A stretch of DNA of 64,000 nt, from the NCBI RefSeq assembly GCF_009914755.1, contig NC_060944.1. The stretch is one strand, 5' to 3'. The position numbers and the translations under genes are program-made. Source of the stretch: the human T2T-CHM13v2.0 reference genome, Homo sapiens. Positions 4,739 to 49,629 of this stretch are shown piece after piece (the first letter of the stretch is position 1; each line of letters begins with the position of its first letter). The notes beneath the pieces were generated by a model that worked only from the letters and a program-made list of their open reading frames with translations, ran no database searches and had not been told where the DNA came from.

Positions 4739-5462
<724 letters not shown>

Positions 5463-41645: not shown

Positions 41646-44600
41646 GGCTTCTAGTTGCAGTAGGAGGGACGAATTGAGAGCAAGGGTTTAAGGACTAAAT
41701 GCAGGGTGCAGTACAGTGTCAGTGTCAGTGTGCAGTGCTCAGGAAATATTTGTTGAAGGGGAAGAGTATGCTTCTTCAGTCCAAGGTGGAAGCATGAAGG
41801 AAACTGTAAGCACATTGATCTAGACCACAGTTTCAGGTACAGAGGGGAGCGTTAACTAAAGCTCAGAGCGGGGAAAGCACAGGGTGCTTACAAAATGGCA
41901 AATGCTGTCATTTAGGCCAGAATCCTACTCACACTGCTGCTGTATATCCTCTTCATCTGTGTTTAGGATTTTGAAATGCATTTTTGTTGGATTATTGCCC
42001 CACTAGAAAAAACAGTTCAGATCTGTTGCAGTTTCACATTTGAAACTACTTTCATTCTGGAATCCTTATCCTTAGACCTTCCTAATAATTTCTGTGGTCA
42101 CACTGGACCTGATCTCTTCCTGTGCTAAACAAAAGCACACAATCACAAAACTGTGTAGGCATAAATGAGAGGCATATGGGAGTGGTGTAAAAGGAACTGG
42201 AAGAGTCTTAATATGCCTGGGTGGGCGAGCTAAACTAATAGCTCCCAGCAGTTTTTCTGAATCAGACATTGTGGAGCCAGGAGTCTAGCATTTGGAATTC
42301 CACTGCCTGTGCAAAGGGTCTGTCTTTTATCCTCCAAACCACCATTTGTTAACTGGTTAATGACCCAGTGGACCCGTTGACAACAAAGGAGGGAAAGCTG
42401 GTAAAGATCAAGTTAAAAGGAAAAAGAAAAGTTCAAAGGTAGGAAAGTAAGAACAAGAAGGGTTTAATCATATCTTCACCTACTCTTTATTTTTTAACAA
42501 TTTATTGTGGGGAATTTTGAACATACACAAAGTAGATGGAGTAATGTAGTGACCTCCCATGAACCTATCCCCTCAGCCCCAATAAGCTGCAGTTACCAGA
42601 CTTAATGAAAGGAAACCAGAACTCTGGTGAGGCTTAGGTTTGGTTTCCAGACCTCTCTAGGCCTTGTCACCTTTGGCCTTATCCCATCAAACACCTCTTT
42701 TCCCCATTTTTAGCTCCTGGTGTGCACAGAACACTGCGTTTAGGCTAGTGATGAGTATGACAGTACTTAACCTCTAATAGATTAAGGAAATAACTGTTAT
42801 TGTTCAAGTATGGTTTTGAGAGCAGAAAAGTGTAATTCTGTCAAAGGTACACAACGAAGAGGGAACTTAGGAAGGCATTATTGAGAAGTTGACATTTGAG
42901 TTTACAGCAGAAACGTTGGGCAAGGGGTAGGGAATGATCTCTGAGATAGCAGCATACCCGATCTACTAGCTCTTTTTCACCAGGCTATTTAGAGTTTGAC
43001 ATTTATGTTACATTTATAACAAGGTACATTTCAAGTGTAGCTTTCCTTTTTGCTTTAAGCAACTGAGACATGTAAGTCAATTTCAGTTATTTTCTGCTAA
43101 ACTGTGTGTCTCTTTGAATGTTCACTATCAAGGTGAATTATACAAGGTGTGTTAGATCCTTTTAACATTTCAGAGCAACCAAAACCAAGTTTGAATGTCT
43201 CATTTAACACTGTGAGAGGATGTATCTTGTCTGCATCTTGTGTTTCAGTTGTATTTATCGGTAAAATAAGCCAGGGGAGTATTCTGACTTGCAGTTTAAA
43301 AGCTGACAGGCCTAGGGGAATGTTCCACAAAATAGTATATTTTGTATATGGCATGGTATTATAGATAAATGAGCTATTGTGCTGCCTGGCACTGTCTTCT
43401 CCCTTGTGCTGTCTTCTGCTGTTTCTCAAGGAGTGATTCCTCTCTGTGTTTTGGAACCGTGTTTCTCACTGCCTACAGATGATGTCCATTTGGCTTATTT
43501 CACTGTCATCTCATACACAGCTGTTTCAAACTGCATGGAATCCTCAGAGAACTACACGCCCCTTCCTGAACAAACAGTGCTTCTTCCTGCATTTTCTTCT
43601 TAAACTTTTATCACTTTTCCCCCCTTACATATACTTTTGTTTTATTCTTTCACTAAAAAAAAAATGAGGTTTAATTGACTTACAATAAACTACACATATG
43701 TAAAGTGTACAGTTTGCTCAGGTTTGGCAGGTATACCTGTGAAATGATCACTGCAATCAAGATAGTCAACATATCATTCACTCCATAAAGTATCCTTGTG
43801 CCCATTGGTAATCTCTCCCTCCCATGCTCCCCCTGCCCTGTCTCCAAGCAAACACTAATCTGCTTTCAGTCACTATAGATTAGTGTGCATTTTATAGAAT
43901 TTTATGTATATATGTTTTATATAGATGAAATCATACAATATGCACTCCTTTCCTTCCATCCTTTCTTCCTTTTTAGGTCTGGTTTCTTTCATCCAGCATA
44001 ATTATTTTAAGATGTATGTATCAGTAGTTTATTCCATTTTATTGTTGAGTAGTATTCTGTTGTATGGATATATCACATTTGTTTATTTGCCTGTGGATAG
44101 ATGTTTGAGTTGTTTCCAGTCTTTGGCTATTGCAAATAAAGCTTCTTTGAACATTCATATATAAATGTTTATATGGACATATGCTTGCTTTTGTCTTTTC
44201 TTTTTTAAAAAAAAAAGCACAGATGGGAACCGGGCGTGGTGGCTCATGCCTGTAATCCCAGCACTTTGTGAGGCTGAGGTGGGCGGATCACCTGAATGTT
44301 AGGAGTTCAAGACCAGCTTGGCCAACATGGTGAAACTCCGTCTCTACTAAAAATACAGCAGTTAGCCTTGCATGGTGGTGTGTGCCTGTAATTCCAGCTA
44401 CTCAGGAGGGTGAGGCTGGAGAACCGCTTGAACCCTGGAAGTGGAGGTTGCATTGAGCCGAGGTTTCAGTGAGCCGAGATCACGCCAGTGCTCTCCAGCC
44501 TGGGTGACAGAGCGAGACTCCATCTCAGAAACAACAACAACAGCAACAACAAATAGAGATGGGGTTCGAGCCCAGGCTAGTCTTGAACTCCTGGGCTCTA

Positions 44601-45309
44601 GTGATACTCCTGCCTTGGCCTCCCAGACAAAGTGTTGGGATTACAGGTGTTAAACCACTGTGCCCAGACTCTTTTTCCTTTGTAAATACATAGGAATGGT
44701 GTGGTTGCATCATATGTTTTAACTATTTAAGAAATTGCCAAACTTTTTCTAAAATATTTTCAAGTACTTACCATCTATATATCTTCTTTGGTGAAATGTC
44801 TGTTTAAATCTTTTACCCATTTAAAAAAATTACATTGTTTATTTTCTTGCTGTTGAGGTTTTTGTTTGTTTGTTTGAGACAGTCTCACTCTGTTGCCCAG
44901 GCTGGAGTACAGTTGTGCGATCCCAGCTCGCTGCAGCCTCCACCTCCTGGGTTCAAGTGATCCTGAACTTCCTGAGTAGCTGGGACTACAGGCACGCGCC
45001 ACCACGCCCGGCTAATTTTTGTATTTTTAGTAGAGACGAGGTTTCACCATGTTGGCCAGGCTGGTCTTGAACTCCTGGCCTCAAGTGATCCGTCCACCTC
45101 GGCCTCCCAAAGTGCTGAGATTATAGGCATGATCCATTGCCCCCAGCCTGTTGAGGTTTTTTTTTAAATCAGGTATATAATCAGGTATATGCTTTGCAAA
45201 TATTTTCTCCCAGCGTATTACTTGTCTATTTTCTTAACAGTTTCTTTCAAAGAATAGAGTTAAAAAGATTTTTTGTATCTTTTTAGCTTTTTTTTTTTTT
45301 TTTTTTTTT

Positions 45310-45634
45310 GAGCAGTCAGAACACACACAGCATTTATTGGAAGTTTTCCATCTTATATGGGCACAGTTTGTGGCTCCCCAAAACAATTAGAATAGTAATA
45401 TCAAAGATCACTGATCACAGATCACCATAACAGATATAATAATAATGAGAAACTGTGAAATGTCGCAAAAATTACCAAAATGTGATCCAGAGACAGGAAG
45501 TGAGTGCATGCTGTTGGACAAATGGCACTGATAGATTTGCTTGACACAGGGTTGCCAGAAACCTTCCATTTGTTAAAAAATGCAATATTTGTGAAGTACA
45601 ATAAAGTGAAACACAGTAAAATGAGGTGTGCTGG
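45310..45634 (-). mobile_element. Tigger1 5' portion, inside SVA-transduced DNA
   Basis: Reverse complement matches remembered Tigger1 5' end (...atatctgttatggtgatctgtgatcagtgatctttgat...tgtgtgttctgactgctc); truncated exactly at the poly(A). Confidence 0.78.
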
Positions 45635-45721
45635 GCATCCTGCCATTTATGCACATGCCTCTTTAGGTAGAAAATAATCCTGTAAAAGTTGAGGCTGTGG
45701 TTGCCTTTCTGAGAATCTTGT

Positions 45722-46030
45722 CTACAGAAATGGTCAACTGGTGGCCAGCTAGCCAAAGGGCTAATCTAGCCCACAGACATGTTTAGTTGGGGCTACATAG
45801 AGCTTTTTACAAATTTGAGTCAATATTTAGAAAATAAAAGTCTGGATTTTGGGATTCCCTTACAAAAACTGGAAAATTTGGCCACACTGGGTCATATTCC
45901 CACATAGTCGTGGTGGTTGGGGTTCAGTAGCAGTAGCTGCTGCCCCTTAAGACAGGTCCCCATGGTCCCCACTCAGTTGCTTCCTTATTTATCTTACAAG
46001 CCTGGCAAGGAATTTGAGTTGAACTGATCT
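45722..46030 (+). mobile_element. MER102-like hAT-Charlie element, inside SVA-transduced DNA
   Basis: agcccacagacatgtttagttggg...gccacactgggtcatattcccacat...gctgccccttaagacagg. Confidence 0.6.
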
Positions 46031-46184
46031 AGAAGATTGGTGCTAAGAACCAGCTCAGTGGCTTAGCTGTCCTGGGGTCTGCAGGAGAAGGCTTCTTTGT
46101 TAGGCCCAGGCAGGAAGTCTGGGCATGGATTGAGTTTTATTTTTATTTTTTTATTTTTTCTTTTTTTTTTTGACCTTTTAAATA

Positions 46185-48071
46185 TTTATTTATTTTATTT
46201 TATTTTATTTATTTATTTATTTTTAATTGATCATTCTTGGGTGTTTCTCGCAGAGGGGGAGTTGGCAGGGTCATAGGACAATAGTGGAGGGAAGGTCAGC
46301 AGATAAACAAGTGAACAAAGGTCTCTGGTTTTCCTAGGCAGAGGACCCTGCGGCCTTCCGCAGTGTTTGTGTCCCTGGGTACTTGAGATTAGGGAGTGGT
46401 GATGATTCTTAACGAGCATGCTGCCTTCAAGCATCTGTTTAACGAAGCACATCTTGCACCGCCCTTAATCCATTTAAGCCTGAGTGGACACAGCACATGT
46501 TTCAGAGAGCACAGGGTTGGGGGTAAGGTCACCGATCAACAGGATCCCAAGGCAGAAGAATTTTTCTTGGTACAGAACAAAATGAAAAGTCTCACATGTC
46601 TACTTCTTTCTACACAGACACGGCAACCATCCGATTTCCCAATCTTTTCCCCACCTTTCCCCCCTTTCTATTCCACAAAACCGCCATTGTCATCCCGGCC
46701 CATTCTCAATGAGCTGTTGGGTACACCTCCCAGACGGGGTGGTGGCCGGGCAGAGGGGCTCCTCACATCCCAGTAGGGGCGGCCGGGCAGAGGCGCCCCT
46801 CATCTCCCAGACGGGGCGGCTGGCCGGGCGGGGGGCTGACCCCCCCCACCTCCCTCCCAGACGGGGCGGCTGGCCGGGCAGAGGGGCTCCTCACTTCCCA
46901 GTAGGGGCGGCCGGGCAGAGGCGCCCCTCACCTCCCGGACAGGGTGGCTGGCCGGGCGGGGGGCTGACCCCCCCACCTCCCTCCCGGACGGGGCGGCTGG
47001 CCTGGCGGGGGCTGACCCCCACCTCCCTCCCGGACGGGGTGGCTGCTGGGTGGAGACACTCCTCACTTCCCAGACGGGGTGGCTGCCGGGCGTAGGGGCT
47101 CCTCACTTCTCAGACGGGGCGGCTGCCGGGCGGAGGGGCTCCTCACTTCTCAGACGGGGCGGTTGCCAGGCGGAGGGTCTCCTCACTTCTCAGATGGGGC
47201 GGCCGGGCAGAGACGCTCCTCACCTCCCAGACGGGGTCGCAGCCGGGTGCTCTCACATCCCAGACGGGGCGGCGGGGCAGAGGCGCTCCCCACATCTCAG
47301 GCGATGGGCGGCCGGGCAGAGACGCTCCTTACTTCCTAGATGGGATGGCGGCCGGGAAGAGGCGCTCCTCACTTCCTAGATGGGATGGCGGCTGGGCAGA
47401 GACGCTCCTCACTTCCTAGACGGGATGGCGGCCGGGAAGAGGCGCTCCTCACTTCCTAGATGGGATGGCGGCCGGGCAGAGACGCTCCTCACTTCCTAGA
47501 CGGGATGGCGGCCGGGAAGAGGCGCTCCTCACTTTCCAGACTGGGCAGCCAGGCAGAGGGGCTCCTCACGTCCCAGACGATGGGCGGCCAGGCAGAGATG
47601 CTCCTCACTTCCTAGACGGGGTGGTGGCCGGGCAGAGGCTGCAATCTCGGCACTTTGGGAGGCCAAGGCAGGCGGCTGGGAGGTGGAGGTTGTAGCGAGC
47701 CGAGATCACGCCACTGCATTCAGCCTGGGCACCATTGAGCACTGAGTGAACCAGACTCCGTCTGCAATCCCGGCACCTCGCGAGGCCGAGGCTGGCGGAT
47801 CACTCGCGGTTAGGAGCTGGAGACCAGCCCGGCCAACACAGCGAAACCCCGTCTCCACCAAAAAAGTAAGAAAACCAGTCAGGCGTGGCAGCGCGCGCCT
47901 GCAATCGCAGGCACTCGGCAGGCTGAGGCAGTAGAATCAGGCAGGGAGGTTGCAGTGAGCCGAGATGGCAGCAGTACAGTCCAGCTTCGGCTGGGCATCA
48001 GAGGGAGACCGTGGAAAGAGAGGAAGAGGGAGACCGTGGGCCGTGGTGAGAGTGAGAGGGAGAGGGAGAGC
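46185..48071 (-). mobile_element. SVA retrotransposon (SVA_D-like), near full length, antisense to host gene
   Basis: SINE-R ~46225-46725, GC-rich VNTR ~46725-47640, Alu-like ~47640-48010, short (CCCTCT)n head ~48048-48070. Confidence 0.96.
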
Positions 48072-49629
48072 TCTTTTTAGCTTTTATAGCTTTTGTTGTG
48101 TCTAAGGAATCTTTGCCTAACCCGAGTTCACAAAGATTTTCTTGTATGTTTTTTTCTGGAATTTCTGTAGTTTTTAGATTTACATGTAGATCTAATATTT
48201 TAATACATGGTATGAGATATTAAGGATCCAAGTTCAGTTTTTTGCATATGAATATCCAGCTGTTTTAGTACCAGTTGTTGAAAGGACTATCATTCCTCTA
48301 CCGGATTGTCCTTGTACCTTTGTCAAAAATCAGTTGTTTATATATCTGTGGGTCTGTTTCTGGACTCTGTTCCATTGATATGTTTACCTTATCTTTATGC
48401 CTGTACCACACTGTTTTACTATAACTTGAAGTGAGGCAGTTTTAGTCCTCTAGCTATATTCGTTTTCAAAGTTGTTTTAGGTAATCTAGGTTCTTTGCAT
48501 TTCCAAATAAATTCTAGAATTAGCTTCTCAATTTCTTAAAAAAAAAAAAAAGCACGTTGGGATTTTGATTGGGACTACATTGAATCTGTTTGGGGGAAGA
48601 GCTGACGTCTTAACAGTTTAGGAGAGATACAAATTAACAAATTAAATTAGTGATTTTATTTTAATTAATGTTTCTCAGTAGTATTTTTGTGTTTTTCCTG
48701 TACAGGTTTTATGTCTTTTGTCAAATTTTTCTCTTAATATTTCACAATTTTTGATACTGTTTTAATTTTTTCAGAATTTCAGTATTTGGTCATTGCTACT
48801 CTATAGACATGAAGTTGATTTTTGTGTATTGATCTTGTATCCTGCAACTTGGCTAAATTCACTTATTTTAATAGCTTTTTGGGGAGATTCCATTGGATTT
48901 TCTTTTTTCTTTTTCCTTTTTTTTTTGAGATGGAGTCCTGCTTTCTCACCCAGACTGGAGTGCAGTGGCCCAATCTCGGCTCACTGCAACCTCTGCATCC
49001 TGGGTTCAAGCAATTCTACTGCCTCAGCTTCCTGAGTAGCTGGGATTGCAGTTGCCTGCCACCAGGCCTGGCTAATTGTATTTTTAGTAGAGACAAGGTT
49101 TTACCATGTTGCCTAGGCTAGTCTTGAACTGACCTCAGGTAATCCACCCACCTCGGCCTCCCAAAGTGCTGGGATTACAGGCATGAGCCACCGTCCCTGG
49201 CCTCCGTTGGATTTTCTGTACATCATTTGCAAATAAGGACAATTTTACTTCTTTCCAATTATCACTTGTTTTACTTATTTACTTATTATCAGTATTTTCT
49301 GTGTTGTCACTGCTTCAGAGATTCTGTCCTTTTCAATTTTCTTTTGTTATCTTCTTGGTCTTAGATATTATCATATTGTTGTTTGTTTTTTTTTTTTAAT
49401 TAGTTAATGGCTTTCTGTGAGGTATTCTCTCAGTCTATGTTGTCTTCAGAAAACACTGGTTTCATTTTGTTCAGGGCCATATCATAATTCCTAGCTACCA
49501 ATTACATGAAGTTCCAACTTATTTATTCCTCCACATTGGGATCAAATATTTCTTCCTGTCAATAATTGGCATTTCTGTTTACCATTGCAACTTATTCTAG
49601 CCTAGGTCCCACTTAAAATTATAGTTGGG

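What the first reader, a model, noticed from the sequence alone, without database searches (positions are those of the whole stretch)
45278..48085. SVA insertion carrying an ~825-bp 3' transduction of foreign genomic DNA into this intron
Seen: the true TSD is not next to the SVA tail. The 14-mer tctttttagctttt occurs at 45278-45291 and at 48072-48085, bracketing the SVA plus an extra segment (45310-46134) and a separate pure T22 run (45288-45309). The host L1M reads colinearly across the TSDs. On the SVA sense strand an AATAAA (45338-45333) lies 23 nt before that poly(A), inside a Tigger1 that is cut off exactly there. The SVA's own signal is the weaker ATTAAA (46227-46222). The nick site TTTT/AT fits L1 endonuclease preference. 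Established: SVA/L1 read-through of weak polyA signals gives 3' transduction. Inference: 45310-46134 (Tigger1 + MER102-like + unique DNA) was copied from another locus that holds the source SVA.
Basis: partly seen in the sequence, partly recalled or inferred. Interest (0 to 1): 0.8.

Follow-up and report, generated by a model that had tools for sequence, protein, structure and literature searches.

The report
SVA insertion with chr9-derived 3' transduction
A full-length SVA retrotransposon in the first intron of CBFA2T2 carried about 825 bases of chromosome 9 DNA along when it was copied, which is a well-known and ordinary by-product of how these elements spread.

Summary
An exact 14-bp target-site duplication (45278-45291 and 48072-48085) encloses, on the minus strand, a full-length SVA (46135-48071), 825 bp of non-SVA DNA (45310-46134) and a second pure poly(A) of 18-22 nt.

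The 825 bp has exactly two other full copies in this genome.
- Chr9 (C9:36940799-36941623) is the original locus.
- Chr6 (C6:107028201-107029023) is a sibling. It is another full-length SVA with the same inner tail and the same transduced piece, but its own 16-bp duplication and a cleavage site 3 nt further on.

There is one departure from the prediction. No SVA sits at the chr9 locus in this assembly. Homology stops at TTTT/AA, an L1 endonuclease site, so chr9 looks like the empty allele of a source SVA that is lost or polymorphic.

This is a textbook L1-mediated SVA 3' transduction. Transduction groups and missing source elements are both already described. Not testable here: ape orthologues, SVA subfamily, presence in the 2006/2009 catalogues. 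Interest is low.

The parts
45278..45291 (.). Target-site duplication, copy next to the terminal poly(A). Its last 4 T merge with the T run.
   Evidence: Exact 14/14 match to 48072-48085.
45292..45309 (-). Terminal poly(A) of the retrotransposed RNA. It is 18 nt beyond the duplication; the whole pure T run from 45288 is 22 nt.
45310..46134 (-). 3' transduced DNA copied from chr9. 45310-45631 is the terminal 322 bp of a Tigger1-type element. 45632-46134 is low-copy DNA. Homology to chr9 extends to 46138-46139.
   Evidence: three full-length copies; the non-Tigger part has exactly 3 copies.
45333..45338 (-). AATAAA polyadenylation signal used by the read-through transcript, 23 nt before the tail. 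It is the first and only AATAAA/ATTAAA on this strand within the transduced DNA.
46135..46224 (-). Inner A-rich tail inherited from the source SVA: (TAAA)n/(TAAAA)n, a GGTCAA interruption (46170-46175) and an A tract. The motif around GGTCAA is shared only with the chr6 sibling.
46222..46227 (-). ATTAAA at the end of SINE-R, where most SVA copies have AATAAA.
46225..46725 (-). SINE-R module of the SVA.
   Evidence: 98.4% identical (8 mismatches in 500) to the chr6 sibling. Module names are recalled from the SVA literature; the SVA scheme is given in a passage of PMC6139936.
46726..47639 (-). VNTR module, with 37-49-bp units and higher-order 128-bp units.
   Evidence: Tandem Repeats Finder rows.
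47640..48035 (-). Alu-like module (approximate borders).
   Evidence: Reading; alignment to chr6.
48036..48071 (-). 5' hexamer-repeat end (approximate inner border). The sense strand starts G-CTCTCCCTCTCCC. The G at 48071 is absent from the chr6 copy, which starts CTCTCCCTCTCCC.
48072..48085 (.). Target-site duplication, copy at the SVA 5' end. It is followed by AT, so the nick context is TTTT/AT.

Best explanation
This is a classical L1-mediated SVA retrotransposition with a 3' transduction.

An SVA once sat on chr9, next to what is now C9:36940799-36941623, with its sense strand on the chr9 plus strand. Its transcripts ran through its own ATTAAA/(TAAA)n tail into the flank. They were cleaved and polyadenylated at the first AATAAA downstream, which lies inside a Tigger1.

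L1 endonuclease nicked CBFA2T2 intron 1 at TTTT/AT. The RNA (SVA, inner tail, about 825 nt of chr9, new poly(A)) was reverse transcribed in full, giving a 2780-bp insert flanked by a 14-bp duplication.

A second RNA from the same lineage was cleaved 3 nt further on and inserted on chr6.

The source SVA itself is not in this assembly. The chr9 site looks like the empty allele.

Shown: the anatomy, the three copies, the empty site, the two independent duplications. Inferred: the read-through transcription, the L1 machinery, and the fate of the source.
For: **Boundaries.** The exact 14-bp duplication encloses the whole composite. 0 of 100 shuffles gave 3 matches.

**Copy number.** The 825 bp has three full-length copies among the 40 scored hits. 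Its non-repeat part has 3 of 3 candidates and no more.

**Chr9 is the original.**
- The Tigger1 continues past the poly(A) site and aligns with the 7 paralogues.
- No SVA lies within 5 kb on either side. Apart from the 831-bp match there were only three short hits at 80-83% identity.
- Homology ends at gagTTTT/AAAG on the priming strand. TTTTAA occupies 0.13% of positions per strand in that 10-kb locus.

**Chr6 is an independent sibling.**
- It has the same composite and its own exact 16-bp duplication, CCAAACCCTATTTCTT, with a 27-29-nt tail.
- A 21-nt motif of the inner tail is exact only in the chr6 and chr20 copies. There were 7 hits at up to 1 mismatch against 18 for the reversed control.

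**Polyadenylation.**
- AATAAA lies 23 nt before the tail and is the only such hexamer in the segment.
- Both cleavage points fall at a CA of the chr9 sequence, 3 nt apart.

**Literature.** Transduced pieces enclosed within duplications, transduction groups and absent sources are described in PMC12593883 (section 7 and passages).
Against: **No source SVA.** No SVA is present at the chr9 source in this assembly. The key intermediate is therefore inferred, not seen.

**The weak-signal account is incomplete.** The SVA tail holds 11 AATAAA hexamers. A weak hexamer alone does not explain the read-through.

**Branch lengths are uneven.** The two copies share 8 differences from chr9, against 3 and 4 private ones. 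That is more than a simple star tree predicts, though not significantly (P = 0.088). Of 3 shared sites that could be polarised, 2 are changes on the chr9 branch.

**Limited resolution at the duplication.** The L1 paralogues cannot show that the 14-mer was single before the insertion.

**No primate test.** No outgroup primate sequence could be examined.
Confidence: 0.93

Rival explanations
1. Same mechanism, different parent. The chr20 insertion was copied from the chr6 element, which already carried the chr9 piece. It was not copied directly from the chr9 source. The chr6 transcript reused the transduced AATAAA and was cleaved at the earlier CA.
For: - The two copies are closer to each other (6 mismatches in 823, 99.27%) than either is to chr9 (11 mismatches over 831 aligned positions for chr20).
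- They share 8 differences from chr9.
- At least one of these differences, a CpG to CpA change, is probably derived in the copies.
- Offspring acting as sources is documented (PMC12593883 section 7).
- The reverse direction is excluded. The chr6 copy holds 3 more chr9 nucleotides before its tail than chr20 does.
Against: - 2 of the 3 polarisable shared differences are changes on the chr9 branch, so the excess is partly just chr9 evolution.
- A star tree is not rejected (P = 0.088).
- chr20 shares none of the chr6-private changes (3 substitutions and a 2-bp deletion inside the segment). Those changes could, however, postdate the copying.
Confidence: 0.3
2. Template-switch chimera. L1 reverse transcriptase began on a polyadenylated chr9 transcript and jumped to the tail of an SVA RNA. 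On this account no SVA ever sat on chr9.
For: - No SVA is present at chr9 in this assembly.
- Such a switch has been proposed for an SVA joined to a processed pseudogene (legend of Fig. 3d in PMC12593883 section 7).
Against: - The chr9 homology ends exactly at TTTT/AA on the strand that would prime an SVA insertion. The chance is about 0.1-0.3% per position. A template switch does not predict this.
- The piece is intronic or repeat DNA, not a processed mRNA.
- The chr6 and chr20 copies have the same junction but different cleavage sites. That requires either two identical switches or one switch followed by ordinary copying.
Confidence: 0.03
3. The composite is not one event. Either an SVA landed next to an older retrocopy of the chr9 DNA, or a segmental duplication or gene conversion took place between chr6 and chr20.
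For: None beyond the presence of two poly(A) tracts.
Against: - The only duplication encloses the whole composite. There is none around either half.
- The same composite occurs on chr6 with unrelated flanks and its own duplication.
Confidence: 0.01

Closest known systems
SVA 3' transduction events and transduction groups of the human genome (Ostertag 2003 and Xing 2006, both recalled; PMC12593883, read in part)
   Same: - Extra flanking DNA lies between the SVA tail and a second poly(A), all enclosed by one target-site duplication.
- The extra DNA maps to one other locus.
- Siblings share the same piece.
- The terminal tail is short (18-22 nt). PMC12593883 section 7 reports shorter tails for SVAs with a 3' transduction (median 26 bp).
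   Different: - At 825 bp it is longer than the median 3' transduction of 258 bp, but well inside the published range of 9 bp to 4 kb.
- The source element is missing from the assembly. The same paper also reports this for part of its set.
L1 3' transduction (Goodier 2000, seen only as a reference-list entry; mechanism recalled)
   Same: Read-through of the element's own polyadenylation signal, use of a downstream signal, and L1 endonuclease and reverse transcriptase doing the insertion.
   Different: The passenger here is a non-autonomous SVA mobilised in trans.
Retrotransposon-mediated gene or exon shuffling by SVA (AMAC1 family, Xing 2006, recalled)
   Same: The same mechanism moves non-repeat DNA to new loci.
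   Different: The moved piece here is a Tigger1 end plus about 500 bp of low-copy, apparently intronic DNA. I saw no exon or gene in it, and did not run an ORF or gene search on it.

Membership tests
Full-length SVA insertion made by L1 machinery | Hexamer repeat, Alu-like, VNTR, SINE-R and A-rich tail, in that order on one strand | tested here: met
   Reading; VNTR arrays; module-by-module alignment to a second SVA. No consensus library was available, so the subfamily was not assigned.
Full-length SVA insertion made by L1 machinery | Target-site duplication of 7-20 bp, and a nick site resembling TTTT/AA | tested here: met
   14-bp exact duplication with nick context TTTT/AT.
SVA 3' transduction | Non-SVA DNA between the element's own tail and a second poly(A), inside the duplication | tested here: met
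   45310-46134 lies between the inner tail (46135-46224) and the T22 run, and all of it lies within the 14-mers.
SVA 3' transduction | The extra DNA maps at high identity to another locus where the sequence continues beyond the polyadenylation point | tested here: met
   Chr9 copy at 98.7% over 831 bp. The Tigger1 continues there and aligns with 7 paralogues.
SVA 3' transduction | Polyadenylation signal 10-30 nt upstream of the new tail | tested here: met
   AATAAA 23 nt before the tail, the only one in the segment.
SVA 3' transduction | An SVA sits directly upstream of the source copy. This is expected but not required: published sets accept origins without an SVA. | tested here: not met
   No SVA within 5 kb either side of the chr9 copy in this assembly. 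[quoted passage not shown]
SVA 3' transduction | At an empty source site, the homology breaks at an L1 endonuclease motif on the priming strand | tested here: met
   gagTTTT/AAAG in chr9. TTTTAA frequency is 0.0013 per position per strand.
SVA 3' transduction | Empty orthologous site with a single copy of the duplicated 14-mer in outgroup primates | not testable with these tools
   No primate genome other than the window's own assembly is held. The L1 paralogues only show that the flanks are adjacent and colinear.

The most novel reading that the evidence does not exclude
The chr9 source SVA is a 'ghost' master, extinct in living humans. Its only traces would be the chr20 and chr6 offspring. 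The about 500 bp of low-copy chr9 DNA it exported probably comes from an intron of the paired-box gene whose exons lie about 97 kb away. That DNA could carry regulatory sequence that now acts in CBFA2T2 intron 1. Nothing here tests such activity.
Probability: 0.04. Interest if true: 0.4.

Novelty: already known. Interest (0 to 1): 0.15.

Why it matters
It matters little beyond annotation.

- **Annotation.** It documents one SVA transduction group of two members (chr20 and chr6). It fixes the origin on chr9 and shows that the source element is absent from this assembly.
- **Mapping.** The about 500 bp of otherwise unique chr9 DNA has two 99% copies elsewhere. This can confuse read mapping and variant calling in that chr9 region.
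- **General biology.** It is a clean example of the point that SVA source elements can vanish while their offspring persist.

The mechanism, the frequency of such events and the existence of missing sources are all established.

Tried and rejected
**Database searches**
- Rfam scan of 45000-48400: 0 matches.
- Further lineage members through the inner-tail motif: none beyond chr6 and chr20.
- Further or truncated copies of the transduced piece: none.
- Search with the tail plus the SINE-R end: only generic SVA ends apart from chr6 (40 scored of 723 candidates).

**Single versus double 14-mer.** I tried to resolve this with 7 L1 paralogues. The alignment is too loose at about 70% identity.

**Literature**
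- The catalogues most likely to list this element, Xing 2006 (PMC1693794) and Damert 2009 (PMC2775593), are not held.
- The main texts of PMC10681720 and PMC12593883 hold none of CBFA2T2, PAX5, chr9 or chr20; PMC6139936 was asked only for chr9 and chr20 and holds neither.
- The two held supplement files of PMC12593883 do not mention PAX5 or CBFA2T2. Some cells there were cut, so this is weak evidence.
- A search for CBFA2T2 with SVA found 6 papers, of which 5 were listed. I judged them from titles and abstracts only; they appear to treat CBFA2T2 as a protein, not this locus.

**Rejected readings.** Two adjacent insertions, a segmental duplication, and splicing of a distant SVA transcript onto the piece. 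For the last, I see no AG acceptor in the bases before the chr9 boundary, and an inherited A tract sits at the junction.
Full report
**1. What is in the sequence**

Read on the minus strand, the region between 48085 and 45278 has this order:
- a 14-bp repeat copy (48085-48072);
- one G;
- a CCCTCT-type hexamer end;
- an Alu-like part (to about 47640);
- a VNTR (47639-46726; Tandem Repeats Finder arrays with periods of 37-49 and 128 bp);
- a SINE-R part (46725-46225) that ends in ATTAAA (46227-46222);
- an A-rich tail of (TAAA)n/(TAAAA)n with a GGTCAA interruption and an A tract (46224-46135);
- 825 bp that is not SVA (46134-45310);
- a pure poly(A), seen as a 22-T run on the plus strand of which 4 bases overlap the repeat;
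- the second 14-bp copy (45291-45278).

The two 14-mers are identical. With one mismatch allowed the window holds 3 matches against 0.20 expected. None of 100 shuffles reached 3. The base after the right copy gives the nick context TTTT/AT. The insert between the repeats is 2780 bp, of which 1937 bp is SVA with its inner tail. Rfam finds nothing here.

**2. Where the 825 bp comes from**

A search of the window's own assembly gave three full-length copies among 40 scored hits (3645 first-look candidates):
- the window itself;
- C6:107028201-107029023, at 99%;
- C9:36940799-36941623, at 99%.

The other 37 hits cover only about the first 322 bases at 80-86% identity. That name is not from a tool. 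The remaining part (45640-46134) has exactly three copies in the genome (3 candidates, 3 scored).

**3. Chr9 is the original locus**

- **The repeat continues.** On chr9 the Tigger1-type repeat runs on beyond the point where the chr20 copy meets its poly(A). That continuation aligns with the 7 paralogous copies I aligned.
- **No SVA nearby.** A BLAST of window 44001-49500 against 10 kb around the chr9 copy found the 831-bp match (98.7%). The only other hits were three short matches at 80-83% identity from outside the insert, which I take to be Alu. So there is no SVA within 5 kb on either side.
- **The break is at an endonuclease site.** On the side where the SVA should lie, homology stops at gagTTTT/AAAG. 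This is an L1 endonuclease consensus, on the strand that would prime an SVA in the required orientation. TTTTAA occupies 0.13% of positions per strand in that 10-kb locus, and TTTTA 0.30%.
- **Not a splice junction.** In my reading no AG acceptor precedes the boundary.

I read chr9 as the empty allele of a source SVA that is either lost or not present in this individual. [quoted passage not shown]

**4. Chr6 is an independent sibling**

- **Same composite, different site.** The chr6 locus holds a full-length SVA, the same inner tail and the same piece of chr9 DNA. It also has a 27-29-nt poly(A) and its own exact 16-bp duplication, CCAAACCCTATTTCTT, with unrelated flanks.
- **Shared tail signature.** A 21-base motif around the GGTCAA interruption is exact only in these two elements. 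Five further hits have one mismatch, giving 7 in all against 18 for the reversed control.
- **Same 5' start.** Both copies start at the same register of the hexamer repeat. The chr20 copy has one extra G. From recalled knowledge such a G is often ascribed to the RNA cap.
- **Different cleavage site.** The chr6 copy keeps 3 more chr9 nucleotides before its tail than chr20. In the chr9 sequence both ends fall at a CA. These were therefore two separate RNAs, and chr6 cannot descend from chr20.

**5. Relationships and age**

Over the 825 bp:

| Class of difference | Count |
|---|---|
| Private to chr20 | 3 substitutions |
| Private to chr6 | 3 substitutions and a 2-bp deletion, plus 1 change at the boundary |
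| Shared by chr20 and chr6 against chr9 | 8 |

Three of the 8 shared sites lie in the repeat and can be polarised with 7 paralogues. Two are changes on the chr9 branch. One, CpG to CpA, is probably derived in the copies. A star tree is not rejected (P = 0.088 for 8 or more of 15 on one branch).

Identity of chr6 against chr20, by module:

| Module | Result |
|---|---|
| Transduced piece | 6 mismatches in 823 (99.27%) |
| SINE-R | 8 mismatches in 500 |
| Alu-like plus hexamer end | 16 mismatches in 431 |
| VNTR | 92.5% identity, with 135 gap columns |

The figure of 0.73% has a Poisson 95% interval of 0.27-1.59%. Set against a recalled human-chimpanzee divergence of about 1.2%, it places the events roughly at or after that split. 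This is an inference with wide error. I cannot say whether either insert is human-specific. Whether chr20 came straight from chr9 or from the chr6 element stays open.

**6. Why the transcript read through**

It is a minority state: 326 genome matches for the SINE-R end with ATTAAA against 1658 with AATAAA. These are exact-pattern counts and lower bounds.

But the tail directly downstream holds 11 AATAAA hexamers in the chr20 copy, and the (TAAA)n part is shared with chr6. Hexamer strength alone therefore does not explain the read-through. A lack of downstream elements in an A-rich tail is the usual explanation (recalled, not tested).

In the chr9 flank the signal used is the first and only AATAAA or ATTAAA on that strand in 825 bp. 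A (TG)n stretch lies between it and the cleavage site.

**7. The host site**

The flanks belong to an old L1. Of 11 paralogous L1 loci fetched with the right flank, 7 also align to the left flank. In these the two flanks are colinear and within about 20 bp of each other. The other 4 matched the right flank only. These copies are about 70% identical and the site is T-rich, so they cannot show that the 14-mer was single. Its exactness within so old a repeat argues for a recent duplication.

The SVA is antisense to CBFA2T2, which lies on the plus strand according to the hub's annotation.

**8. Comparison with what is known**

The anatomy meets every testable criterion of an SVA 3' transduction. 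The one exception is an SVA at the source, which published sets do not require.

PMC12593883 (section 7 read in full) reports the following:
- 40% of non-reference SVAs carry a transduced piece;
- 3' pieces have a median of 258 bp, and transduced pieces overall range from 9 bp to 4 kb;
- tails are shorter on elements with a 3' transduction;
- 68% of such elements fall into groups;
- offspring act as sources.

It also proposes template switching for one SVA-pseudogene chimera. I considered that mechanism here and rate it unlikely, because of the endonuclease motif at the chr9 break.

I could not see the catalogues of reference-genome events (Xing 2006 and Damert 2009, not held). Whether this exact element is listed there is therefore unknown to me. 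The three papers I queried name none of the gene or chromosome terms asked of them, and the held supplements of PMC12593883 name neither PAX5 nor CBFA2T2.

**9. Verdict**

- Two findings are added: a chr6 sibling, and the ATTAAA lineage as a minority state among SVA copies.
- The kind of event is textbook, so interest is low.

Noticed in passing
L011 4955-7749 (G000:C6:107028155-107030949): Sibling full-length SVA on chr6 with the same chr9 transduction. It has its own 16-bp duplication, a 27-29-nt tail, nick context TTTCTT/GA, and a 9-bp deletion in the Alu-like part relative to chr20.
   Followed up: yes
L012 about 4990-5000 (G000:C9, near 36940795): Empty source site: homology to the transduced copies ends at gagTTTT/AAAG, and no SVA lies within 5 kb. 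Paired-box (PF00292) exons lie on the minus strand of the same chromosome at C9:37038702-37044519, about 97 kb away. From memory the gene is PAX5 and spans about 200 kb. On that basis the source site would lie in one of its introns, antisense to it. This is not verified.
   Followed up: partly
window 46170-46190: The inner tail of this SVA lineage has a non-A interruption, ...TATTTAAAAGGTCAA on the sense strand. It is found only in the chr20 and chr6 copies. It could be the remnant of an older, very short transduction from a grandparent locus, or just a mutated tail. A GGTCAA also lies 17 nt beyond the chr9 break, which I take for chance.
   Followed up: partly
window 48071: One extra G lies between the duplication and the first hexamer on the sense strand. 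It is absent from the chr6 sibling, which starts at the same register.
   Followed up: no
whole genome: SINE-R ends with ...GATCAATTAAA occur 326 times and with ...GATCAATAAA 1658 times in this assembly. The ATTAAA state therefore marks a sizeable SVA sub-lineage, whose subfamily I did not determine.
   Followed up: partly
window 46135-46169 versus L011 5824-5846: The inherited A tract between the SVA tail and the chr9 DNA is interrupted in chr20 (A12 G A6 T A7 T A5 T A4 on the sense strand) but pure in chr6. It differs far more than the flanking DNA does.
   Followed up: no
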